Source of the DNA: Rozella allomycis CSF55
Lineage: Eukaryota
NCBI GenBank assembly: GCA_000442015.1
Contig: KE560384.1
Span: 62,001 to 126,000, forward strand
DNA length: 64,000 nucleotides
Reading direction: 5' to 3'
Shown here: piece after piece, positions 3,895-46,440 of the stretch
Position numbering within the stretch: the first letter of the stretch is position 1
Layout of the letters: every line of letters starts with the position of its first letter
Program-made: the position numbers and the translations under genes
Notes under the pieces: model-generated
The model's database searches: none
The model's input: the letters and a program-made list of their open reading frames with translations, nothing else
Told to the model about the DNA's origin: nothing

Positions 3895-6462
3895 TTATTG
3901 TTTTGGAACATTAGAAACAGAAGAATTAAACCCACCAGAGACCAGAAATTGTGAGGTATTGTGGATGGTCATTCCGGCTACTTTGGCTTGCCAATTTTCG
4001 AATATTTTAGACCATTTTTGGAACGATTCTTTATCAGCGAATTGAATGTTGTATTTATCACCATCAGAGACGATAATAGCCAAAAAAGACTTGTTGTTTC
4101 CAGAGTATTGGAATGAGCGAAGATATTTAACAAACCAACTAATTGAAATGCCACCTGGAGAGATGTTAGCGTCTTCATTATTTCTTTTATATTCTAGCAA
4201 GTGGATAGAGTTTCCATCGGTTGACAGGACAAGGGCTTTCAATTTAAATTCAGAAAATAGTCCTGACGATTTAACTTGAACCTTGGTGAACGCTTTCCAA
4301 TCTTTTGACATTTCGCCATCGATTTTCCCAAGAGAAAGTTTGCTTGCTTTTGTGGCTGGTCTCGAATGTTCTGAATTTCCAGAAAAGATTAAAAACAATT
4401 TGAAAAGAAAAGAGGAAATTAAATTGAAGAATGCAATGTAGGCAATGATGAATAATTTGACGAGAAAGCTGGCTTGGAATCCTAAAACGTTGCTAACCAG
4501 CATTGGGATGACAAAAGCAAGGACCATTGTGACGTTATAGATGGAAAGAGCAAGAATTTTCGTTTCTTGGAATTTAGCTGGGACATGCCTCGTTTTCAAA
4601 GCCATAAATAAATTCATTAAAAGAATTAAGCCGCAGTAAACAAGAATTAAAGTAAGAAAAGTGATTTGATTGTCGGGCGATGAGCTTGAACATGTCCAAT
4701 AGTAATCATGACGCGATGAACCCATTTTAACAACAGGGGAAGGAGAGTCTACAGCGTTCCAAATAATAACGATGAAAATAACTGGAATAGTCAAAGAACT
4801 CCCCAACAGTAAAACCTTCGAATCAGTCCATTTGGATCCTTCCGTTGTGGAAATAATATTAAATAAACGATACAATCTAACTGTTTTAGCAAATGTATTT
4901 CCATAATACAAAGAAAATGCAACAGCCAACAAAAATGAATCCGAAACACACGAAGCTTTCGTGGGTAACCCTGGCATTACAAAGAGTTGCAAAAATGCGA
5001 TTGCTAAAGACAAAAGGGAAACGTAGCTAACTTTAATACTCGATCTCATTAAAATTTGATTTTTTCTAAACAGGAAATAAAACGAAAAGGTCGCGAAAAT
5101 AGAAATTAATCCAATGGAGCCTAGAGCATGTGACAGAGTCCCCACAGGGCTGTTGCTGTCTACGTATTGAGCTACTTCGTATGGATCGATTGCATCTTTA
5201 GGCTTTTTCAACTGACCGCCGGGGTAAATCATCGCAATTCCTGAATTTATTATTTCTCCGTTACTCCACGTTGCTACTAGCTGAGCAGTTCCATTTATTC
5301 CATTATAAACGCTATAATCTCCAATTCTCTCTCCATTAGCGTCGAGAATCACATTTCCTGAAGGTGTCATTAAATCATTAAATTGAAACGTTTCCGGAAC
5401 TCTAATTTGATTATGATAAGTTTTGTTAATTAAATTATCAATAGAATTAAGATTTGATGATTTGAAAATTCGGTCTAGACCATGGATCAACAAGTCTAGA
5501 CAACTGGCCATCGCCATCGAATATACCCCTGGAATCGTTGAAGTTGTATTTATTGCAATTGGAGAATTCGTTTGATAAACACCCTGCGGCCACATTGATT
5601 TTATTTCATCATAAATTGGCCCTTGGCCTTCCTTTGCAATAAAAATAATACTCCCTTCAATTTCATTCTTTTGAATCGGATCATCAAACACTGTAATCAC
5701 CCCATCAGATGCAAGCCACGCATATCCCGCACCATATATTCCTTGCTCCTTGGCCACATTGATTATCTTTACATAATCAACAGCAAACCCAAAATATACA
5801 ATAATTCTTGAATCAACCGATTTTGTTGCTTGAACCGCCGACAATATTCGTTCTTTAGAATCTTCGCTATAAAACGATACCCTGGACAAGATTTGTATTC
5901 CCAGCTGTTTGGCTGTAATTGCAAACTGGTTTGCTAGATCCTGTCCATAATTGTCATTAGATGCTATCAACGAAACCATTTTCCATCCACTATTTTTAAC
6001 GTATTGCGCCATAGCATCCGCTTGGAACGTGTCACTAGGTGAGGTTCTGAAAAAGTTGCCGTATTTAGTTTTATCTCCCAGAGTTGGATTAGTAGACGAT
6101 CCACAGCACATTGGCAATTTGAAAGACTGCAGAACAAGAGACTCTATCGTTGACAAACTCGAGTAACCGGCGCCAATTATTCCCAGCATATTTTCATTAT
6201 TGAATTCAATCATCTGAGGCACTATTTTTGTACTATCCAGATCACTGTTCTTAAATGTTAATCTAATTGTTGCATTTGGGTGGATCAATGACGCATTTTG
6301 GTTTAATTGATCTGCACGAAGATATATGGCGTTGATCATGTCGATGAAAACAGTTTGATAGGATGTTATACCCAAAGAGATACCTATATTAATCGGTATA
6401 GTCCCATTAGGACTAAGAGATATTACACAAGATGCATAAAATAAGAGTAGTAATATCATCAT
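3895..6462 (-). CDS. Class C (GABA-B/mGluR-like) GPCR: signal peptide, Venus-flytrap domain, 7TM, C-terminal PH-like region; intronless
   Basis: GIIGAGYSS, KTKYGNFFRTSPSD, KTVRLYRLF, KTRHVPAKFQETK motifs; seven hydrophobic segments; probable start MMILLL at 6462. Confidence 0.9.
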   Translation of the reverse strand: MMILLLLFYASCVISLSPNGTIPINIGISLGITSYQTVFIDMINAIYLRADQLNQNASLIHPNATIRLTFKNSDLDSTKIVPQMIEFNNENMLGIIGAGYSSLSTIESLVLQSFKLPMCCGSSTNPTLGDKTKYGNFFRTSPSDTFQADAMAQYVKNSGWKMVSLIASNDNYGQDLANQFAITAKQLGIQILSRVSFYSEDSKERILSAVQATKSVDSRIIVYFGFAVDYVKIINVAKEQGIYGAGYAWLASDGVITVFDDPIQKNEIEGSIIFIAKEGQGPIYDEIKSMWPQGVYQTNSPIAINTTSTIPGVYSMAMASCLDLLIHGLDRIFKSSNLNSIDNLINKTYHNQIRVPETFQFNDLMTPSGNVILDANGERIGDYSVYNGINGTAQLVATWSNGEIINSGIAMIYPGGQLKKPKDAIDPYEVAQYVDSNSPVGTLSHALGSIGLISIFATFSFYFLFRKNQILMRSSIKVSYVSLLSLAIAFLQLFVMPGLPTKASCVSDSFLLAVAFSLYYGNTFAKTVRLYRLFNIISTTEGSKWTDSKVLLLGSSLTIPVIFIVIIWNAVDSPSPVVKMGSSRHDYYWTCSSSSPDNQITFLTLILVYCGLILLMNLFMALKTRHVPAKFQETKILALSIYNVTMVLAFVIPMLVSNVLGFQASFLVKLFIIAYIAFFNLISSFLFKLFLIFSGNSEHSRPATKASKLSLGKIDGEMSKDWKAFTKVQVKSSGLFSEFKLKALVLSTDGNSIHLLEYKRNNEDANISPGGISISWFVKYLRSFQYSGNNKSFLAIIVSDGDKYNIQFADKESFQKWSKIFENWQAKVAGMTIHNTSQFLVSGGFNSSVSNVPKQ

Positions 6463-6523
6463 CGTAGAATATGAGGTTACTATGGAAAGGTATCTGATGC
6501 CATGATCAAACGAAATTTCAGGA

Positions 6524-8196
6524 ATGGAGGACTGGGATATCAATAGGGTTGCTGGATTCCTGGAACAAAATGGATATTCAGATTATATAAATGTTTTTAT
6601 TGGTAAAAATTCTAGTTGCGGTGCATAGATAATCAAGTAGATGGAAAGGCTTTAATGTTTGCAGATAGAAGAATGCTATCAGAACTGGGTATAAAGACTG
6701 TAGGAAAGAAGATTAAATTACTAAATCTAATAAAGGAAGCTAGAAATTTAAATGAAAAGGAAGATGTCTCAAATTTTGATAATTTGACAGTCGACACTTT
6801 TGACAACAATTTCGATGGCATTTTAACATTAGAATCTGCTCTAGAAGAAAGAGGTAATTTTTAACGTTAATTTTAAGAGATAAAAAAGTTGCTCTTTTGC
6901 AAATAGAGATTATGAAACTAAAGTCTGACATTGAGAGCATCAAATGTAAATTTGAAAGCAGTTCGGAAGGAAACAATGAAGAGTTGAATTTGAAGTTTTC
7001 AAAAGTTGATTTATCAATACAAGAAAACAATTCGAGCCAAAGCAATTCAAACGAGAATAATTCAAATGAAAACCAATCAAACGGAAATAGATCTAACGAA
7101 AACAACTCAAGTGAAAATAATCATGGAAATCAAATAAAGTTGAGTGTTGGCTGTGACGCTATAGCGATTTACGAGTACCACGCTACCCGCAAAGATGAAT
7201 GCGATGTACGAATCGGGGACGAATTTAAAGTTTATGACATTATCGAAGAATGGACCATTGTAGGAAAAAAGGACAAGGAAAATAAAACAATTACTTCTAA
7301 AGGTTGGNAAATACAGCCCGGTCTACCTTCCAAAGGAATTGTTGTGAATGATTACGTCGCTGTTGGGAATAACGAAATTTCCATAATAAAAGGGGAAATG
7401 ATTTCTATTTTAAAAAGATATCAGCATTGGACGTTCATTTCTAAAGTAAATTCTACCGGTTGGGTTCCCAGCGAAAGAGTAAAAATCTTTAAAGATAAAA
7501 TCAATACCCCTGTACAAAATGAATCCTTTAAAAGTCCAATGCAAAGTTTGTCTAATAAAAGTCCGCTGGGTATTTCAAATTTTTCGCAATCACATGATTT
7601 GCAAATTAAAACTGGCAACTCCTTGCTAGAAAAACCTGTGCTAGAAAAAACCTTTCACAGTCTTGGGGATGTCCTTTCAGCTTCCATGGCTGAAAAAACT
7701 CCGACGTTTTCCAAATTTTCAAAAGACGAAAAAGAAATTGTTAAAAGCTTAAAACCTCAAGAAAAGGAAAAAATTGTCACAAACTACATTGAGAAAATAA
7801 AGTCGGAAAAATTGAATCCATCGAGCCAAAATAATTCACCACAGACTACAAATTCATCAAAAAGATTAACTTTATCTGATTTCCAAACGTTGCTAGAGAA
7901 TGGACAACTCTTCAACAATAAAAATACAATTCCAGAGGAACCAAATAGTAAAAACATTCGTTTCATGACAATTAGGATTTAATTATTATAACATTCCGTA
8001 TGACGACCTATTGAAAGCCAAGAATGATCCATCGTTGGATAGAATCCATTTAGAAGTAAAGTTAATTGCATTGATTTTATAGCGATACTTGTCTGAGGAG
8101 GATTGTCTTAGATATTTGCAATGCCAAAAGTCAGAGTTGGATAAGCTACCGGCATGGAAAATCAAACAAAGGAAACAGAGGGCCGATCTCCTATAG
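6524..8196 (+). CDS. SAM + coiled coil + two SH3 + villin headpiece protein, 5 exons (N at 7308)
   Basis: Spliced N-terminus MEDWDINRVAGFL...FIDNQVDGKAL...ELGI (SAM); AIYEYHA and VVNDYVA...GWVPS (SH3); spliced C-terminus HLERYLSEEDC...LPAWKIKQRKQRADLL* (headpiece). Confidence 0.8.
7023..7127 (+). repeat. Degenerate 15-bp coding tandem repeat (ENNSS/QSNSN/ENNSN..., about 7 units)
   Basis: Five-residue periodicity in the translation and DNA. Confidence 0.7.
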
Positions 8197-15507: not shown

Positions 15508-16706
15508 TTATTTAAAATGTATATTAAATATTCCTGAATAGTAAAACATGGCAAGGAACCATAAAAAGAGAAGGAATATTCGAAGAATCAATTTTTGCAG
15601 AATCTTTCTCTCAACGTCTGTTTCAAAAATTAAACAAAAATTACCAGCAAAAGAATAAATAAATAAACTTGCATCTGCAGAGACACTCATTAGCTGATTA
15701 TCCAAACAATTGTATGCTAATGAAGTCACTGAAAAGGTATGGGCATTAAACCAACCATGTAAATACTATCATTTTAAACTGAAGATCCTACCTTTAGATT
15801 TTGGGAAAACAATTTAATTATTCCAGTGGAAAATCCTACGACGACGTAACCCTTAAATGCTAATATACAAGTTGCTGGCTTAACGTGAAGCTTTTTTCTT
15901 TTAACAAGCTTTAATGATGCATTATATTTCAAAAGATAAGAAACTTTCTTTGACACTTCGTTTTCTAAAACAAACAAATCTCCCTTGTCATTAAAGACTC
16001 CTGATCTAATCACGTGGCCGGGTGATGGAAGCAACGTGCTTGAAGGCTCCACTGGCTTTTCTTCTGGACTAAACTTTTCAAAAAAGAAAATTTGCTTTGA
16101 AGTTACTGCGACAAACTTTAAAATTTTATCAATTAATTTGTTTACGTCGTTTTCTTTGTTGAAAGAAATGTTGTAAATTTCCCCATCTTCAAAGGCAAAG
16201 TATGCCTTTTCTTGCCTTGATTTAGCATCCCATATTCGAATCTTTATGTTATTTTTGATTAATTCTTGCCTTTTTATCAATACCACAGGATAAGATATAT
16301 ATCATGTCAGTGGAATACACAAAACATTTCAAGTATGGATCTTGGGTATCGAAATCTCCTTTCCATGTTTCTTCCTTGATTCAAAAAAATCGCATTTAAT
16401 ATATTACGAATCATTTTTAAACTTTAATATTCCACAATCTTCATTAATACAGCATGCAATTTCTGGTTCCTCTGGGTGGGCAGCTACGCTCATTACAGCT
16501 TTTTTCTTTGTATCATGTTTTAGCTCCTCTATTATTTCACCATTCTTAATTTTGATTGTGGCCTGCAACTGAAAAACCAAAATTCTTACCAGTCCATTAA
16601 AAACTCCAGAGTTGACATTTCCGCCACCTCCCGAGACAACGAAACACTCCATAGGCTTTGAATAACAACAACTAAATAAAGGAAAGGATAGATTTTTGGT
16701 TTTCAT
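15508..16706 (-). CDS. SEC12: Sec12/PREB-like WD40 Sar1 GEF with C-terminal TM, multi-exon
   Basis: GGGGNVNSGVFN K-loop; DFDTQDPYLK...SCGIDKKIRIW; SVSAD; C-terminal TM; includes one GC-AG and one putative GT-TG intron. Confidence 0.8.
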
Positions 16707-20627: not shown

Positions 20628-23167
20628 TTATTTAAAGTAGTAGATTACATCGGTCGAGGTTACTTTGACATTTTTTAGGGAGGATTGCTGTTGCAGAAAG
20701 GAAGATTGAGATAAGAGCAGTAATTTATCAGCGTTGACAGATTTGAGATGTTCCACAATATCACTGCAAAATTCTTGATTATTTTTATCCATTAGGAATA
20801 TTTTTAAATTTGAATGACCGAGTGCTTCTTCTAATGTCCTAGAATAGCTCAGATTCCAAGCTACAATGTTCTTTGTAATTGACATTGTTTCGGCAGAAGG
20901 TGTTTCATAGCAAACAAAGTAATGCGCTTTAGATAAAAAGGCGAAATCAAGGACCAGATCAGTTACAGTTTTAGCCCTTTTGCTTTTTCGTTCAGACCCT
21001 GGCTGATAACTTGAATAATCAATTTCAGGAGTGGTTTCAATTTTGTTCCTTGAATGACTTAATTCTTGAAGTTCTTGAAAAGTGATGCATTCTATTGGAT
21101 TTCTATTGTAATAGACTTTAAGTATTCTTGGAAATCGTAGAGTAAAGAATTTGTTGGGTCTTTCTTTTGTAAATCCACTTCCTAAGAGTTCAAAAACGAG
21201 TGGAATTGAAAAAGTGACGTCTATTTTTGAGTTTATAAGATTTGTGATTTGATAGGAAACTTCCTTGTTGGGCAGATTGAGTCCATTGTGAAATTTGATG
21301 CTTGTGTTGTTTATTAAAGCAGAAATGGAACTTCTTTCATCTCTGGAGAGGCCCATTTCTACCGTAAAAACGATTGCGAAATTTGGACAAGAAGATATTT
21401 TATCCAATAATTCTTTTTTATTTGTTAAACACCCGACATGAAATATTTGAAACAAACCTGACGAATCAGCATTTGGAGCATATGAAGCTCCAACAATTGC
21501 AAAGTCACCAGTATCCCCATAACCGTCAATGTCTAAATAAAAATATACTAAATCCCCTACAATCCTTTTTGATTTTCCACCAATTAGTTCTATTGAAGGG
21601 TTTGTAGATCGAATCCAATGATTTTACAATGATTCCTTCTTCATTCTTTTGAATGTGTTCTTGAAAGACATTTCTCAATAAATCCAAATGATTTAATTTT
21701 GAGAAATCAATTATGAATGTTTTTGACAATTCACAATAATTAGGTATCGTTTGCACAACTTGCTCCAATTTAAGTCGGCGGTTTCGTAAGGTGCAATTAA
21801 GTAAACTTTCTCCATTCAAATACAAAATATCAAAAAATATTAAAATATAATGACGAATTCCATTTGTTACATCATTCGAATAAAATGATTTTCCTGGCGC
21901 CAAATCGGAAACGCCACCGAATGGTTCGATTGACTTAGTTCTCTCATTATAAACAAGAATTTCGGCCTCTAGAATAATTGATTCTATAGAATTGATTCTA
22001 GATTTTTCCTGCAAGCCTCTTTCTTTGATAAATTCAGGATCATGGCCAATTGACGCCCAAAGTAATCAAACTTGACAACATTAAAACAATTTTACTTGTG
22101 ACTTTTCAATCTATCAAATGTTGAATCTCTTTTGCTTTTGCTGAATATTTTTAACTTCTTTTTCCCTTCTTCAAACCATAAATGGGCTTGAACTCTTTTA
22201 AGGGCAAATGACATTCTCACCTTTCACCGTCATACTTTGTTTCAATCAAGCATTCTTGCCCCTGAAGTTTATTGGCAACGTATTCTAATGAATTGGGACG
22301 GCCGCATTGCATAATCCCGACATTCACACCCAATTCAGGATTAGAAAACTCTTTATTTAAATCAACGCTTTTATTTTGATCATATTCAAGGCCAATATCT
22401 TTGAACTTTTGAATACACATGCATGCGACTTTTAAATCATTCTTAATAGAATATATTGAAGAAAACATGGCATGGAAGTTATTCATGAAGGGTCTACAAT
22501 CTTCCATGTTAATTCTTAGATCTTTAAGTATAATTCTAATAAGCCACTTGATCTCATTCCCTGTTGATTTCTTTTCACATCCAAAATTTCACAATTACCA
22601 CAAACAAGTCTTTCAGGATTTCAATTTGTGATCGATGATTCTTCAACGTCACAAAATCATCCTTTGACACTTATTTAGAATTATTTTTTATGTATTACAT
22701 TTTGATCGATCATTCCAAGAGTATGCAAGCTGCAGTTCATCCAGCAAATCGTTTACATCCTTCACCGATATGCTAGACGATGGAGTTTCCTACTCTTAAA
22801 ATTTAAAGGTTCATACTATTATTTCTCTTTCTACTATGCTCCCCAAGTCACCTTGCATCCCTGCATCCAATCGCCACTCTAAGATTGCTCGCCCTCTCTC
22901 GGTATTCTCAAGATTAAATATATTAACAATAAAACTGCACAGTTTATTTTCCCTTAATCCATATTTGGAAGGGTCTTCAAATGGAACTAATAGTCGAAAC
23001 AGTCGATAAACTGAATCGACTTTTTCAAACTGTTCAAACCAACTTGAAATACAATCATTTAACACTTGGCTTTTTTCTTTAGCATTTTTTATAGATTTAA
23101 TCATGATGATTTTCTCAAAAAGTGAACATACAAAACCAAAGGGAGCACTGTCTGATGAAGAGAACAT
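20628..23167 (-). CDS. ATP-dependent DNA ligase (ligase IV-like family), 7 exons
   Basis: EIKWLIRIILKDL, motif I KYDGER, FSKSKRDST, FFDILYLNG, EEGIIVK, WWKIKKDY, FTLRFPRI. Confidence 0.9.
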
Positions 23168-30452: not shown

Positions 30453-31393
30453 TTATTTCAGAAGAAACTCAAGAAGTGGGAGAACGCTTGCCTCCTCTTC
30501 GCCCAGTAGGCTGTGGCTGCTGAACCGCTTTACTTTCTATATCCTCTCTACTGTGTCCCAATTATAATATATCATTACGCTTCAGTTTTTTCTGCATTTG
30601 CAACAGGTGCCTTGTTGGTAGGTGAAACCATGGCCCAAGAAAACGACGAATGATTTGACGGAGTATTCAAATAGCCCATAGGTGATGTTATTTCAGCTGT
30701 AGGCATAAGGTCTGGATAAAAGGATGACGGAGATGGTAGTCGGTTATTCATGTTCTGATTCGATGTTGGTGGTTGGATGAATAGCTGACTTAATGCATTG
30801 ATTATACTTTTACCTTGTTAAGTTCTCGAGAATTCGATGCTGTAGCAGGGTTTGATGATGAAGCGCTGGGAGCCACGACTTGCTTTTGCTGAGCGTGACT
30901 CATCATTATTGGCATGGGATGCGTTGGTGCAACCTATAATTTTAAAAAGAAAGTCGCTCTTACTTGAGTCCTTAATAGTTTATCTATCTCTTTTTCAGCT
31001 GGTCTAGCCTTAATTTTCAGTTGCATAATGTCATTTACTTCATCATTAAAGTCCTCTCCATCTTCGTTTTTAGCAAGTAATGATTTAAACTTGTGAAAAT
31101 TAAGCAATAAAATTACATCTTCATTGTTTCTTGATTCATTTGGTTCACTATATTCTGTGTACTTTAAGAGAATCTTGTCCATGTCCGTGCTTGCGTATTG
31201 AATAAGTTTATTATTTGGGGAGAATATAATAACAGCGATTTCGCAGTCACAAAGTACTGAAAGTTCGTATGCCTTTTTCATGAGGCCGAATTTTCTCTTT
31301 GTAAAGGTTACCTAAAAATAGCTGTGGTAAGGTTTTTACCTGGCGGTTGCGATCGTCGGTTATGGATTGAATTTTGATCTTTTTGCGTCCCAT
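30453..31393 (-). CDS. MEF2-type MADS-box transcription factor (Rlm1/Smp1-like), about 6 exons
   Basis: Spliced [58 protein letters not shown] in the C-terminal part. Confidence 0.95.
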
Positions 31394-38114: not shown

Positions 38115-41100
38115 TTATTGTAACATTTTTAAGGAAAAGCCTCTCTTTCTTTGCTCTGGAGCCTTTTCTTCGCAAGTGATATCAAAGAATAATGATATTT
38201 TGTCTTTGTGAGTGTCTGAAATGGTAACAGTGAATGAAATGGGACCATTGGTACCATTTAATATTTCGCCTGGAATAAACGAGCCTTGAGCTACCAGTTC
38301 ACTTTCAGTAATAAGGTTAGCATGTCGTAATTCAACATGTAGAGACGTTAAAAGGTCTTTTAAATAGATCTGGAAAGTTTCATTGAATGCCAATGAATTC
38401 TTTTTCAAAGTTTTCGATTTGAAAACAGTTTTGGAAGAATCCTTGATTTTGACGTAGAGATCATTTCTTGGAGAGGCCATATCCATGTTCTTCAGCTTCA
38501 AATTTAGCAGCCAGATTTTATTAGCGTTTATTGATAAATCTGATTTTGACAGTGTTTTAGCAATTTCAGTTGATTGATGGTCACCCAGCATGTCAGCAAT
38601 AGAATCCATCGACATTGAGTAAATGGGGTTTTCAGAGTTTCTTTGATCGTTTAAAGTATCTTCGCTTTCATCATTTTCACTTTGAAAGTCGACGTCATTT
38701 CTCATGTCCATTGAAAATCGTTGCATTAAATGTCTTTTCGCATTTCTTATATTCTTTGAGAGTTTTTTTGGATTAAGACTATTGATGACGGAATTTTGTT
38801 TGGCTTGAAGTAGAGATGGATACAAATACAGCTGGATGTTAAGATCCCCTTGTTGTTTCAAATTGCTAAGAGTTAGGCATTTTGAGATAGATTTTCCGAT
38901 TTCTAGATCAGACAAATTGTAGTTGGCTGAGCCTAATAAGACGCTGAAATTAACTTTATTCCAATCTTTAACATCAAAAGTTAAAATTGGGTTTTTTCTG
39001 TCAAAGGGGATTTCAAACATTTCATTCCAAATTGGATTGCATGATTTCTTAATAACTTTAGTTTTGAATATTTTGTCATTTCCAATTCGTACAGTGCAAA
39101 ATGGGTCGCTACTTTCTTCATTGTCCACTGCTTCAAGGTTAGACGCAGAAATGATTTCCACTTGCAAGATTAGCGGGGCTTTATTTGAAAATATTAAGTT
39201 ATTTACTTTTATCGTCAATTAATTTATTAACAAATGGAAGAGAACTGGAAACTTTGTATGAAACAGCGATGGATAATTCACCGCCATTTTCAGAGTTTTT
39301 TAAAGGAAAGAAGGAATCCTAATTTTGAAATAATGAAATAAAAATACGATTTGATTTAAATTTGGCAAATTTAATGGAAGGGAAAGTAAGCCAACAATTT
39401 GATGCCCTGAGGTAGGCATATCTTTTTGATCTTTAACAAGAATATTTATTTTAGTTTTTGAAGGATCTAAAATTAGAAATTCAAAAGTTTCGTCCCAATT
39501 AGGATCCATTTTCTTTTCATTTTTTGTTCTTTGACTTTCATCAGTTGCATCGTTGAGAAACAATTCAACAAAAGGGTTGATTAATTTTCCTTTGAAATAT
39601 CTCAATTGTTTTACAGTCACTGAAAGAATTCCAATAAATGGTTCAATGGAGGTTTCAGGGGTAATCAAGTCAAAATATCCAGCTTGGAAGTTTATTAATC
39701 CTTTATCAATCAAATTAATTGAACTTTTAAAGATTTAAAATAATTTTACTAATCTTCAACGATGCCAGTTTTTGTTGTTAAATTGAAGACTGAAAATTGG
39801 CATTTCCCAGTTGATAAATCTTTTCCAATGTTGCTCTTTTCAAGAATCTCCAACGTTATTAATTCTTGTGGTAATGAAAGTGGGAAATAAAGATTTTCTC
39901 CTTTCCATTCAACAGACCCTGCATGGCTGGAAAAGGTAGTTGATGATCTCGCTGTAACGTTTGAATATGATGAAATCAATCGACAATAATAAACACCTTT
40001 GCCTCTAACATCATCATGTTTCAATCCAATTCCATCTTTTAAACTTATTTTTATTATTCCAATATATAATTCTTTTAAATCGTTTAATAAGAATTACTCT
40101 TTTCCATGCTAGATAAATTCTCATTGAAAATCATATTCACATGCTTAAAACTAAATGTCATTCTTATTTTGCCAGATTCTGCATTTTTTAAAATGAACCA
40201 ATCCTTTTGTGCATCCTTTACTTGTCATACTTCAATTTTACTTGTTGAATAACATCCTTGACTGGAATTGAGATATTTCCAATTAGGCCTGAACCCGCCA
40301 AAATATCTCTCTGGTCATAAATTGATACAATTATAGTTTGAATATTTAAATCATGTATAAAAACTTCAAATGTTTCTTCAAAAGTAGGTGAATTGTTTCT
40401 CTTTTTAGTTCTAGTCTTGAAGAGAACCATCGGTTGTTGTCTTGAATATTCTTCCAAGTTTGTTTGATTTTTATAAATAGAAATCTCTGCAAATGGATTG
40501 TAAAGCTTTGAAATTGTCTTTTCTTTGCTTATCAACTCTTTCGCTTGATGCAAAGTCATTCTCAATATTCCACAAGCTAGTTCTTACAATGCTTCAGGAT
40601 CTTACCAGAATTACATTCTTCTACGTTAGATTCAATAACTGGTGAAAATGATGCGTCAAAATTGATCTCTCCTCTTCCTTCTTTAAAATCAGTCTTTTTC
40701 AATTGAAGCCATCTTTATTTTTAAAAACTTTTAAATCTTTACTGATTGTTTAATGCTTCTCCTTGAATTAATGGCTCAACATCCAATGTAACAAATCCCA
40801 TGGGTTTGTCCTTTTTCAGATTGTTGTAATCCAAAACTCTCAATTTTATCTTTTCACTTGAATTTTGAACAAGAAAATACAAAGTTTCATTCCAAAAGGG
40901 ATTTAAATTGTCCATTATTATTCTAGTTCGGCCAACCTCCTTTTCATTAATTTCAATTTTGACATAAGCATCAGCTGAACCTACTTGTTTAAAGTTAATA
41001 AAAGATTACCCATAGCATCAACTTTGGGAAGATTTCTAGCTTGATGAATCGTCATTTTCAAAACACCAATTGCTGTATCAGCAAACCCTCCACTAATCAT

Positions 41101-43564: not shown

Positions 43565-46440
43565 ATGCAATTGACATTGTTAGCTGTCATTATTCAGTTC
43601 CTAATTTGTGTTAGCAAAGCAAATTCTTTGAATTCTTGCAATGTACATCCGCATAGTAGACATGATTGTGGATACGTAGGCATCAGCCCAGATGAATGTG
43701 AAGCCTTGAATTGTTGCTGGGCTCCATTGCTCACAACAAATCATCCATGGTGTTTTCATAGAAATAAGAATTGTGATGGATACCGCCTAAGCAAGTTGTG
43801 GGAGAGCAAGCACTCAATCGAGGCAAAGTTGGTCGCAATCAATCCTGACTGTTTGAAATTTGGAAAGATCGTTAAAAAATTGAAACTTCTTGTTGATTTT
43901 GAGGACAAGGATAGAATTCATGTAAAGATTGGTGACTGGAAGGGAGAAAGATACCAAGTCCCAGAATCTGTTTTTCCAAGGCCAAAAAGTCAAACTTTTG
44001 ATTTCTTACGTTTTTCAAAGGATAATAGCAAGATAAACTCAAAAATGGTGATTTTTAAAGAAAACAAGGAATATAGAATTGAGATTTTGACTGACCCTTT
44101 TCGATTTAAGATCATTAGAAAAGCAACAATGGAAACGATATTTGAATCTAAAGAAGAATTCATTTTTGAAGAAACTTACATTGAAATGTCCACAAAAATA
44201 AGAGCGGGATCACATTTGTATGGATTAGGAGAAATAGCTAGAAACTTTATAGTGAAAGATAATTCCATTTCAACACTTTTCACGAGAGATGCAGCGACAC
44301 CAGAAAATGAAAATTTGTATGGCTCCCATCCATTTTATCTTGAAATGAATAAAGGAAGATCACATGGAGTGGTAAAATATGTTTCACCTTGTAAAATAGT
44401 TTCTACTGAATAGCAATGCCATGGATGTTATTAAGACCTCTACTTCTTTGACATATAAATTGGTCGGCGGGATTCTTGATTTTTATATCTTCATGGGTCC
44501 TTTGCCAACTGATGTGATTTCACAGTATTGGCAAGTTATTGGAGCGCCGGCTATGATACCTTATTGGGCTCTTGGTTTTCATCAATGCAGATATGGTTAC
44601 AAAACTATTTGGGAAGTAATGGAAGTTGTTGATAACTTTGAAAAACATCAAATTCCTTTGGAAACAATGTGGGTTGACATAGAGTACATTATTTGTCTTC
44701 ACATAACAATAGATACATGGATGGATACAGAGATTTCACTTTCGATCCTCAAAGATACCCCGTTCAAGTTGTTCGTAAATTTGTTGATAAATTACATTCA
44801 AATGGACAAAAGTTTACCTTAATAGTTGACCCTGGTATTAAATTGGATTTGCCTCAAAATTAGGTATTAAAATTGACCCCGGTTTAAAATCATACGACAA
44901 TGGAATAGAGAAAGATATTTTCCTTAAAAATAACAATGGAGACAACTTGATTGGAAAAGTTTGGCCCGGGCTTGTACATTTTCNTTGGAAAAGTTTGGCC
45001 TGGATTTGTACATTTTCCAGATTTCTTTCACCCCAAAGCTCAAGAATGGTGGAACGAATGCTTTGCCGAATTTTATGATCACGTTCCAGTTGATGGTACA
45101 TGGATTGATATGAATGGTAAATATTGAACTGTTATTTAAGAAAGAATTGGCAAACTTTTGTGATGGCGATTGTTTCAATCCTCCAGTGGATTCTGAAAGC
45201 ATCAACTTTACTCCATATAGAATTCACAATGGATGGGCCAGATTACCGCTATTCACAAAAACCACCCCAATGGATGCAGTTCATTATGGGGGTCATTTAG
45301 AATTTGATGTTCATAATTTGTTTGGTTTAATGGAAGCCAAAGCTACTTTTAAAATGTCAACCACATTTCATCCAAACAAAAGACCCTTCATTCTTTCAAG
45401 GTCAACTTTTCCTGGTACTTATATTTTCATAATTAACAATAGGTTCTGGTAAATATTCATATCATTGGACTGGCGATAATTGGTCTACGTGGCGCCAAAT
45501 GCATCTTTCAATTCCAGCAATATTAAACTTTAACATGTTTGGGATTCCAATGGTGGGTGCCGACATTTGCGGATTCAATGGTCAAACCACTGAAAATCTT
45601 TGTGCAAGATGGATGGCTTTAGGTGCCTTTTATCCATTTTCCAGAAATCACAATTCAATTGACGCTGAATCTCAAGAACCTTATCTATGGCCAATCGTTT
45701 CAAAAGTTTCTAAAAAGTATTTACGTTTAAGATACAAGTTATTGCCTTATTGGTACACCCTGTTTTACGAATCATCTGAGTTTAAAAAGGTTGTAATTCA
45801 ACCCTTGTTCTTTGATTTCCCAAATGATGAAATCTCTCTTTCTATAGACACGCAATTCATGTTAGGAAGCAGTTTGATGGTTTCACCTGTACTAAAAGAC
45901 TCGGAAAGCGTTAACGTATATTTTCCAAAAGCTAAATGGTACGCGTTGGAAAGTTTTGAGGCTATTCCATCCGATGGATACCATCAAATACATGCATCAA
46001 TTGATTACCTCCCTGTCTACATTAAAGGGGGTCGTATAGTACCAATTCAAGGATTCGCCATGGTCACTGAGAAAGCAAGGAAACAACCATTTCATTTGTT
46101 AATTGCATTAAGTGAAAATGGTAAGGCATCTGGATCATTGTACATTGATGACGGAGAATCATTGAATATTAAATCACATTATTCTTACATTCATTTCAGT
46201 GCGAACATTAAAGATAATTATGGATCGATTTCATCAAAAGGAAAGTTTGATTACGCAGCACCTCAAATATGCAGCGTAAAAATACTTGGAATGAAATGGA
46301 AACCTGCAAAAATACAAATCAGTGGCAATGAAATAACCGAAAGAAATTCTTCATATGATTCAACCAAGGGTGTATTGCAAATTGAAAACATTGAATTGCC
46401 GACTTCAAGCGAATTTATTATCCACTTGATCAACTTTTAA
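43565..46440 (+). CDS. Secreted/lysosomal GH31 alpha-glucosidase with N-terminal trefoil domain, 6 exons
   Basis: Signal peptide; trefoil RHDCGY...C...CCW...[22 protein letters not shown] nucleophile; HWTGDN; GADICGF. Confidence 0.95.

What the first reader, a model, noticed from the sequence alone, without database searches (positions are those of the whole stretch)
22067..22095. DNA ligase intron skips an AG at 25 nt and appears to use TG at 29 nt
Seen on the minus strand: CAC AA|gtaaaattgttttaatgttgtcaagtttg|A TTA CTT TGG GCG TCA ATT GGC. Using the AG at 25 nt shifts frame into TGA. Using TG at 29 nt gives DRLKSHKLLWASIG, continuous with the catalytic exon. Inference: position outranks dinucleotide identity. 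Caveat: one spurious G in the GGG run at 22056-22058 would also allow the AG.
Basis: partly seen in the sequence, partly recalled or inferred. Interest (0 to 1): 0.75.

Follow-up and report, generated by a model that had tools for sequence, protein, structure and literature searches.

The report
Rozella ligase intron ends in TG
A 29-base intron in a DNA ligase gene of the fungal parasite Rozella allomycis seems to end in TG instead of the almost universal AG, and a second gene nearby shows the same oddity, but no RNA data could be checked.

Summary
On the minus strand, a ligase exon ending at 22096 is followed by a GTAAA 5' splice site at 22095. There is an AG at 22072-22071 (25 nt) and a TG at 22068-22067 (29 nt). 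Only the 29-nt excision joins the two ligase exons in frame.

The window is the Rozella allomycis CSF55 isolate assembly. Its introns are extremely short and uniform: 67 clean GTA..AG introns of 26-29 nt, and none of 25 nt.

The TG reading gives an intact 790-codon, 7-exon ligase. It aligns without a gap to 72 homologues, but beats the "AG at 25 nt plus one spurious G" reading by only 2 bits.

A second intron in the window (16382-16407, minus strand, 26 nt) has the same TTTG|A 3' end and no short GT..AG alternative. Canonical introns in the window also skip AGs ending at nt 24-25, next to a conserved A at nt 23.

The public gene models avoid both TG introns with implausible 138-nt and roughly 200-nt introns that delete conserved residues.

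The read-finding tool failed in all 16 attempts, so neither cDNA nor raw reads were checked. Best reading: a real GT-TG intron chosen by position (0.65). It is a new variant of a known rare class.

The parts
20628..23167 (-). ATP-dependent DNA ligase gene. My model has 7 exons and 790 codons. Exons: 23167-22817, 22789-22699, 22669-22599, 22570-22221, 22194-22096, 22066-21561, 21532-20628 (stop codon included).
   Evidence: the spliced CDS is 2373 nt with a single terminal stop. Pfam DNA_ligase_A_M, E 3.3e-27; the nearest solved structures are DNA ligase 1, 3 and 4; the public model EPZ36976.1 is encoded by this window but skips exon 5 and part of exon 6.
22067..22095 (-). Intron 5, 29 nt, GT..TG: the finding.
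   Evidence: It is the only solution under 77 nt that joins exons 5 and 6 in frame from a GT or GC donor. Interior GC is 0.21, and the exon-versus-intron log-likelihood ratio is -2.3 bits.
22071..22072 (-). Skipped AG (nt 24-25 of the intron). It overlaps the A23-A24 pair at the position where 47 of 67 introns have A.
22067..22068 (-). Inferred TG acceptor dinucleotide. With the next base it forms an in-frame TGA (22068-22066).
22056..22058 (+). C3 run (GGG on the coding strand).
   Evidence: The alternative was tested.
22040..22042 (-). Premature TGA reached if the AG at 25 nt is used.
22195..22220 (-). Intron 4, 26 nt, GT..AG. It splits motif I between KYDGE and R.
21533..21560 (-). Intron 6, 28 nt, GT..AG. 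It restores KKD|Y-IDGYGDT as in the homologues.
16382..16407 (-). Second candidate GT..TG intron, 26 nt, in the WD40-repeat gene O9G_001418. It has the same TTTG|A 3' end with an in-frame TGA across the junction.
   Evidence: the shortest GT..AG alternative is 80 nt; interior GC 0.14; the public model uses the same donor but a 138-nt intron.
16270..16381 (-). 112-nt exon (37 codons plus 1 nt) that the public WD40 model treats as intron. Its end, together with the start of the next exon, forms a WD40-type S-x-G-x-D-x-x-I-R-I-W-D signature.
   Evidence: The composition log-likelihood ratio is +6.4 bits for exon.
16242..16269 (-). 28-nt GC..AG intron in the same WD40 gene.
30785..30813 (-). Canonical 29-nt intron with the same layout (A23 A24 G25, then ..CAG at 29). 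It skips an AG ending at nt 25.

Best explanation
Intron 5 of the Rozella allomycis ligase gene is a real U2-type intron of 29 nt, removed at a TG acceptor (GT..TG). In this genome the acceptor is chosen mainly by position. Introns are 26-29 nt long, and an A about 23 nt from the donor is probably the branch point. The acceptor lies 3-6 nt beyond that A. The AG at nt 24-25 abuts this A and is too close to be used. The spliceosome therefore takes the next G-ending dinucleotide inside the allowed window, a TG preceded by T and followed by A. Shown here: the sequence, the frames, the length distribution, the A at nt 23, the skipping of early AGs in canonical introns, and the second TTTG|A case. 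Inferred: the identity of the branch point, the actual use of TG in RNA, and whether the AG 4 nt upstream helps early recognition, as in human TG-AG tandems.
For: 1. Frame: from a GT or GC donor, only the 29-nt excision gives an open joined frame below 77 nt. It yields an intact 790-codon gene whose other five introns are canonical and 26-29 nt long.
2. Length: 67 clean GTA..AG introns number 13, 15, 22 and 17 at 26, 27, 28 and 29 nt. In the candidate table there are 0 at 25 nt and 1 at 24 nt.
3. Early AGs are skipped in 14 of 67 clean introns, 2 of them at nt 25. One is a near twin at 30785-30813.
4. A occupies nt 23 in 47 of 67 introns whatever their length, against 40% A in intron interiors. 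The ligase intron has A23 and A24.
5. Homology: a profile of 72 of 149 homologues scores the TG model at 69.6 bits, aligned end to end without a gap. The AG25-minus-one-G model scores 67.6 bits and the 77-nt intron model 65.0 bits. MAFFT has to open a column that none of the 72 has in order to fit the AG25 model.
6. A second intron at 16382-16407 has the same TTTG|A end, is 26 nt long, and has no GT..AG alternative below 80 nt.
7. The segments that longer introns would remove have exon-like composition: +5.1 and +6.4 bits.
8. T at -3 and a purine at +1 match both the local acceptor context (T in 34 of 67 at -3) and the context reported for human TG acceptors (PMC2374985, section 12, read).
Against: No RNA or raw-read evidence was obtained: the look-up of sequencing runs was unreachable in all 16 attempts. 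The homology margin over the AG25-plus-indel reading is only 2 bits, and that reading places I at the conserved H-x-x-I position. None of the 67 clean introns ends in anything but AG, although they were selected for AG. In humans, TG acceptors were found only as alternatives to a nearby AG, and AG>TG mutants did not splice at TG (PMC2374985, section 12). The second TG intron lacks an A at nt 23. Two relatives fetched from metagenomes, L001 and L002, have no intron at this position, so there is no comparative support for the junction. The second case rests on frames, composition and a WD40 signature recognised by eye. Pfam gave no hit for that 37-residue exon alone.
Confidence: 0.65

Rival explanations
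1. The acceptor is disabled (AG mutated to TG). The transcript is spliced at the AG at 25 nt or keeps the intron, which gives a truncated, non-functional ligase. The gene would be a very recent pseudogene, or be expressed mostly as unproductive RNA.
For: Splicing at the AG gives a stop after 11 codons. In human AG>TG mutants, neighbouring AGs were activated and TG was not used (PMC2374985, section 12). The public annotation found no canonical model either.
Against: The other 789 codons and five introns are intact. The copy from the second, divergent Rozella assembly (P0001) keeps an open frame and differs from the window in only a few residues. In one search, 3 of its 5 runs of missing 12-mers are not splice junctions. 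The neighbouring WD40 protein has diverged far more: only 231 of 629 of its 12-mers are shared. A second gene would need the same accident at the same intron position. AGs ending at nt 24-25 are not used in canonical introns here.
Confidence: 0.12
2. One reading: the assembly carries one spurious G in the GGG run (22056-22058). The true intron would be the 25-nt GT..AG, and the protein would read ...SHNLITLASIG...
For: That reading is open. It scores 67.6 bits against the family profile, only 2 bits below the TG model, and it puts I at the conserved H-x-x-I position.
Against: It needs an intron length with 0 examples among the GTA..AG candidates of the window. It also needs an indel error within 15 nt of the junction. 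I saw no other unexplained frameshift in the window's long exons: the breaks lay at N joins, on antisense strands, or at junctions where a canonical intron was found. It adds a residue in a stretch where none of the 72 homologues has one. It does not explain 16382-16407.
Confidence: 0.08
3. A base-call error or heterozygous variant at the -2 position. The true (or other) allele would be a canonical 29-nt GT..AG intron.
For: One substitution turns each TG intron into a normal intron of normal length. The assembly is a draft with single-N joins.
Against: It needs two independent A-to-T errors at the same functional position among about 70-95 introns in 64 kb. No reads were available to test this.
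Confidence: 0.07
4. A longer canonical intron is used: 77 nt (22095 to 22019), 80 nt (22102 to 22023), or the roughly 200-nt intron of the public model that joins KYD to EAEILVYN.
For: These are the only frame-compatible GT..AG solutions. The public models EPZ36976.1 and RKP16736.1 use the longest one.
Against: They delete the conserved stretch after the H of the family motif, which lowers the score to 65.0 bits. The public model also deletes G-E-R of the catalytic motif I, which the homologues carry as K-Y-D-G-E-R. The removed 48 nt have exon-like composition, +5.1 bits. Introns of this size are far outside the 26-29 nt peak.
Confidence: 0.05

Closest known systems
TG-AG tandem acceptors in human U2-type introns (Szafranski et al. 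2007, PMC2374985; abstract and section 12 read)
   Same: The 3' end is TG with a canonical GT donor. There is a pyrimidine at -3 and a purine at +1. An AG lies close by: 4 nt upstream in the ligase intron and 7 nt downstream in the WD40 intron, both within the 28-nt limit reported for humans.
   Different: In humans TG is only ever an alternative to a productive AG, and it occurs at about 0.01% of candidate motifs. Here TG would be the only productive acceptor, in a 26-29 nt intron, and would occur in 2 of roughly 70-95 introns of one 64-kb window.
Rare GT-TG introns in RNA-supported fungal annotation (Ganoderma lingzhi, PMC11590231, Table 1, passages read)
   Same: GT-TG is listed there among real non-canonical junctions of a fungus.
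   Different: The frequency there is 22 in a table where GT-AG alone numbers 89,855 (0.024%). Here it is about 2-3% if both cases hold. Those introns are of ordinary length.
Ultra-short intron systems: myxobolid myxozoans, Dicyema, ciliates, microsporidia (PMC13644364, main text read)
   Same: Introns are under 30 nt. Splice signals are reduced to GTa...AG. Weakly conserved A residues sit further from the AG the longer the intron is, which matches the 5'-anchored A at nt 23 seen here.
   Different: That paper does not mention Rozella and reports no non-AG acceptors.
GC-AG introns (the common minor class of U2 introns)
   Same: One 28-nt GC..AG intron lies in the same WD40 gene (16242-16269). 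This shows that non-consensus dinucleotides occur in these tiny introns.
   Different: The change is at the donor, not the acceptor, and the class is well known.

Membership tests
U2-type spliceosomal intron, GT-AG class | 5' terminal GT with the local consensus (GTA) | tested here: met
   GTAAAA at 22095-22090. All 67 clean introns start with GTA, but by selection.
U2-type spliceosomal intron, GT-AG class | 3' terminal AG | tested here: not met
   The only in-frame end below 77 nt is TG at 22068-22067.
U2-type spliceosomal intron, GT-AG class | Length and composition typical of the genome's introns | tested here: met
   29 nt, against 17 of 67 clean introns at 29 nt. Interior GC is 0.21 against a median of 0.22.
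U2-type spliceosomal intron, GT-AG class | Branch-point adenosine at the usual place | tested here: inconclusive
   A is at nt 23, as in 47 of 67 introns. That this A is the branch point is inferred, not shown.
U2-type spliceosomal intron, GT-AG class | Removal seen in RNA | not testable with these tools
   The look-up of sequencing runs was unreachable in all 16 attempts, so read laying could not be used.
GT-TG / TG-AG tandem acceptor introns | TG at the junction implied by the mature reading frame | tested here: met
   This comes from frame and homology, not from cDNA.
GT-TG / TG-AG tandem acceptor introns | An AG within 28 nt of the TG | tested here: met
   The AG at 22072-22071 lies 4 nt upstream. 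For 16382-16407 an AG lies 7 nt downstream.
GT-TG / TG-AG tandem acceptor introns | TG used as an alternative to a productive AG isoform | tested here: not met
   The AG isoform runs into a TGA after 11 codons, so TG would be the sole productive site.
U12-type (minor) intron | Extended donor consensus RTATCCTT (recalled from general knowledge) | tested here: not met
   The donor is GTAAAATT.
ATP-dependent DNA ligase | Adenylation domain with motif I K-x-D-G-x-R | tested here: met
   Pfam DNA_ligase_A_M at E 3.3e-27 on exon 6. KYDGE|R spans intron 4 in my model. The nearest solved chains are DNA ligase 1, 3 and 4.
ATP-dependent DNA ligase | N-terminal DNA-binding domain | tested here: inconclusive
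   Pfam DNA_ligase_A_N at E 0.0011, 19.6 bits, below the 24.6-bit cut-off. The K-W-L-I-R-I-I-L-K-D-L motif is shared with the homologues.

The most novel reading that the evidence does not exclude
In Rozella allomycis the spliceosome picks the acceptor with a ruler rather than by reading AG. The cut falls 26-29 nt from the donor, 3-6 nt beyond a branch A fixed at about nt 23. The -2 base may be T, so a few percent of introns end in TG as their only productive acceptor. Genome annotation then mis-models those genes systematically.
Probability: 0.5. Interest if true: 0.65.

Novelty: new variant of a known kind. Interest (0 to 1): 0.5.

Why it matters
If RNA data confirm it, Rozella would offer natural introns in which a TG is the sole productive acceptor. 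The rule drawn from human data says this should not happen. It would give a compact system, with introns of 26-29 nt, for asking how the second catalytic step of splicing finds its 3' site: by distance from the branch point or by the AG itself.

There is also a practical point. The public models of at least two genes in this window are wrong. The ligase model EPZ36976.1 lacks G-E-R of catalytic motif I, and the WD40 model O9G_001418 lacks a 37-residue exon. The cause is that gene callers insist on AG. Comparative studies that use the Rozella proteome inherit such errors.

Tried and rejected

- RNA and DNA read evidence: the look-up of sequencing runs was unreachable, so read laying was never possible.
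- No whole genome is held for the window.

**Readings rejected**
- Alternative genetic codes: the standard code fits. Reading TGA as sense would be needed for a 32-nt GT..AG intron (22102 to 22071). I dropped it because TGA ends 9 of the 36 long ORFs.
- My first guess at the organism, a dicyemid or myxozoan, was wrong. Protein hits name Rozella allomycis.

**Searches for more non-AG introns**
- Searches were too noisy to use.
- One search flagged 54 rows. After inspection only 22067-22095 and 16382-16407 remained. The others had a canonical 26-29 nt intron in another frame pair, were antisense, or lay inside continuous exons.
- One search flagged 24 rows. The new TG row at 40855-40880 lies inside a continuous C2-domain exon.

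**Comparative and other tests**
- Metagenome scan: 3 loci. L001 and L002 were inspected and have no intron at this position. L003 was not inspected.
- Pfam and PDB searches on the WD40 exons gave only weak hits or none.
- Rfam and tRNA scans of the window found nothing.
- Literature: searches found no paper describing Rozella splice sites. The genome paper of James et al. 2013 is not in the library (search 79), so I cite it from recall only. Supplementary tables, such as Table S7 of PMC8042348 with per-species intron medians, could not be seen.

Full report
**What is there**

On the minus strand the window holds a seven-exon gene for an ATP-dependent DNA ligase, spanning 23167-20628. Exon 5 ends with ...CAC AA at 22096. 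It is followed by GTAAAA (donor at 22095), an AG at 22072-22071 (nt 24-25) and a TG at 22068-22067 (nt 28-29). The run of three C on the plus strand is at 22056-22058.

Splicing at the AG reads ...SHNLITLGVNWP and stops at a TGA at 22042-22040. Splicing at the TG reads ...SHK/LLWASIG... and continues through the exon that matches Pfam DNA_ligase_A_M at E 3.3e-27. In the correct downstream frame the TG and the next base form a TGA (22068-22066). No acceptor upstream of 22067 can therefore give an open frame.

**Which organism**

The exon's closest protein is named DNA ligase/mRNA capping enzyme, partial [Rozella allomycis CSF55]. Its cluster mate EPZ36976.1 (P0151, from a 129,188-nt contig) is encoded exactly by the window, and so is O9G_001418 (P0152). 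The only 12-mers of these proteins missing from the window's translation are runs of 11-12 at splice junctions: 6 runs for P0151 and 11 for P0152. The window is therefore the CSF55 isolate assembly.

The window is 32-38% GC and fits the standard genetic code. Its ten N spots, those inspected, are contig joins flanked by near-duplicate ends.

**Intron landscape**

An ORF-joining scan gave a sharp length peak. Of 138 GT[AG]..AG candidates, 14, 11, 23 and 14 fall at 26, 27, 28 and 29 nt, against 1 at 25 nt and 2 at 30 nt. With a coding-score filter, GTA..AG candidates number 18, 18, 27 and 16 at 26-29 nt, 0 at 25 nt and 1 at 24 nt.

A cleaned set holds 67 introns: 13, 15, 22 and 17 at 26, 27, 28 and 29 nt. 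Their interiors are 40% A, 40% T, 9% C and 11% G. Nucleotide 23, counted from the donor, is A in 47 of 67. By length this is 10 of 13, 10 of 15, 15 of 22 and 12 of 17. The signal is thus anchored to the 5' end, as described for other ultra-short introns (PMC13644364, main text read).

Fourteen of the 67 carry an internal AG ending at nt 20-25 that the reading frame says is not used: five at nt 24 and two at nt 25. One of these, at 30785-30813, has the same A23-A24-G25 layout as the ligase intron but ends in CAG at nt 29. Skipping an AG at 25 nt is therefore normal behaviour in this genome.

**Is the TG really the acceptor?**

I enumerated every GT or GC donor and every AG or TG end that keeps both exon frames open. 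The 29-nt GT..TG is the only solution under 77 nt. The shortest AG solutions are 77 nt (22095 to 22019) and 80 nt (22102 to 22023).

With the TG junction the gene is intact: 2373 nt, 790 codons and one terminal stop. The other five introns are canonical, at 27, 29, 28, 26 and 28 nt.

HMMER found 837 relatives at E<=0.001. Of the best 149 other than the Rozella copy, 72 carry the motif I-F-S-K-S-G-R-x-S-T-x-D-R-x-x-x-H followed by a short conserved stretch. A profile built from those 72 segments gave these scores:

| Model | Score (bits) | Alignment |
|---|---|---|
| TG at 29 nt | 69.6 | end to end, no gap |
| AG at 25 nt with one G removed | 67.6 | |
| 77-nt GT..AG intron | 65.0 | |

When the three models are added to the alignment, the AG25 model needs an extra column that none of the 72 has. 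One of the relatives is transcript-derived (Paraphelidium) and has the same spacing as the TG model. Even so, 2 bits is a small margin.

Composition supports coding for the 48 nt that the 77-nt intron would remove (38% GC; +5.1 bits for exon over intron). The 29-nt element looks intronic (21% GC; -2.3 bits).

**A second case**

My scan for frame-restoring, non-AG introns flagged 54 rows. After inspection all but two loci turned out to be artefacts of my filter. The survivors are the ligase intron and 16382-16407 (minus strand, 26 nt) in the WD40-repeat gene O9G_001418.

This second intron also ends TTTG|A, again with a TGA across the junction in the downstream frame. Its shortest GT..AG alternative is 80 nt.

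The public model uses the same donor but a 138-nt intron. That removes a 37-codon exon and reads through what I take to be a 28-nt GC..AG intron at 16242-16269. The skipped exon has exon-like composition (+6.4 bits). Its end joins the next exon to give an S-x-G-x-D-x-x-I-R-I-W-D signature typical of WD40 repeats. I recognised that signature by eye and from general knowledge; Pfam gave no hit on the 37 residues alone.

Two frame-dictated acceptors with the same four bases are hard to ascribe to random assembly errors. A relaxed scan produced one more TG row, which lies inside a continuous C2-domain exon. The count therefore stays at 2 among roughly 70-95 introns.

**Public annotation**

EPZ36976.1 and the single-cell copy RKP16736.1 both join K-Y-D directly to E-A-E-I-L-V-Y-N. 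This removes G-E-R of catalytic motif I and about 70 further residues. They also use a 16-nt intron where the homologues require K-K-D-Y-I-x-G-x-G-D-T. These models look like work-arounds for the missing AG.

**Mechanism proposed**

The following is inference. The donor and a branch A at about nt 23 are recognised first. The acceptor must lie 3-6 nt further on. The AG at nt 24-25 abuts the branch A and cannot reach the catalytic centre. The next G-ending dinucleotide in the window, a TG with T at -3 and A at +1, is then used.

From general knowledge of spliceosome structure (recalled, not checked here), the last G of the intron pairs with the first G of the donor, and the -2 A contacts the branch A. 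A T at -2 would weaken that contact but need not abolish docking. The nearby AG may serve early recognition, as proposed for human TG-AG tandems, where TG acceptors always have an AG within 28 nt (PMC2374985, abstract and section 12).

**Comparison and novelty**

GT-TG junctions are a known, very rare class. There are 36 human genes, always with TG as an alternative site (PMC2374985). Ganoderma lingzhi has 22, or 0.024% (PMC11590231, Table 1, passage read). The human transcriptome survey PMC4176328 mentions them too (passages read).

What would be new here:
- TG would be the only productive acceptor.
- It would occur in introns of 26-29 nt.
- Its apparent frequency would be about a hundred times higher.

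My searches found no paper on Rozella splice sites. PMC8042348 gives a fungal intron-median range starting at 29 bp, without naming the species in the passages I saw.

**What is missing**

Neither cDNA nor raw reads could be checked, because the run-finding tool failed in all 16 attempts. Two related loci from metagenomes (L001, L002) have no intron at this site, so there is no comparative test of the junction.

**Verdict**

| Reading | Confidence |
|---|---|
| Real GT-TG intron chosen by position | 0.65 |
| Unproductive splicing or recent pseudogene | 0.12 |
| AG at 25 nt plus an assembly indel | 0.08 |
| Base error or variant at the -2 position | 0.07 |
| Longer canonical intron | 0.05 |

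Noticed in passing
window 16382-16407 (-): A second candidate GT..TG intron (26 nt, TTTG|A end) in the WD40-repeat gene O9G_001418. The public model replaces it with a 138-nt intron that drops a 37-codon exon.
   Followed up: partly
window 16242-16269 (-): A 28-nt GC..AG intron in the same WD40 gene. The public model translates it as Q-E-L-I-K-N-N-I-K.
   Followed up: partly
window 20628-23167 (-): The public ligase model EPZ36976.1 (692 aa) differs from a homology-consistent model (790 aa) in several places. It starts at a later ATG. It removes two short in-frame stretches. It lacks G-E-R of motif I and exon 5. It uses a 16-nt intron at 21533-21548 instead of the 28-nt intron at 21533-21560.
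   Followed up: partly
window 44984, 10548, 14566, 59861, 62422 (single N): The single Ns are contig joins. The 25-30 bases on each side are near-duplicates that differ by 1-3 bases, and they break reading frames (for example in the GH31 glucosidase gene at 44984).
   Followed up: partly
all clean introns of the window: A occupies intron nt 23 in 47 of 67 introns whatever the length (26-29 nt). This suggests a branch point measured from the donor and only 3-6 nt from the acceptor.
   Followed up: partly
window 3895-6582 (-): An 895-codon ORF encoding a class C GPCR: ANF_receptor at E 1.8e-42 and 7tm_3 at E 2e-33.
   Followed up: no
P0153 / P0001 versus the window: The 'single-cell' Rozella allomycis CSF55 proteins are not identical to the isolate's. 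The WD40 protein shares only 231 of 629 12-mers with the window, while the ligase differs in only a few residues. The two assemblies therefore seem to represent divergent haplotypes or strains.
   Followed up: no
L002 (metagenome contig, 1949 nt): A 33% GC relative of the ligase with canonical introns that look longer (roughly 40-60 nt by eye, not measured) and no intron at the Rozella intron-5 position. It is probably another early-diverging fungal parasite.
   Followed up: no
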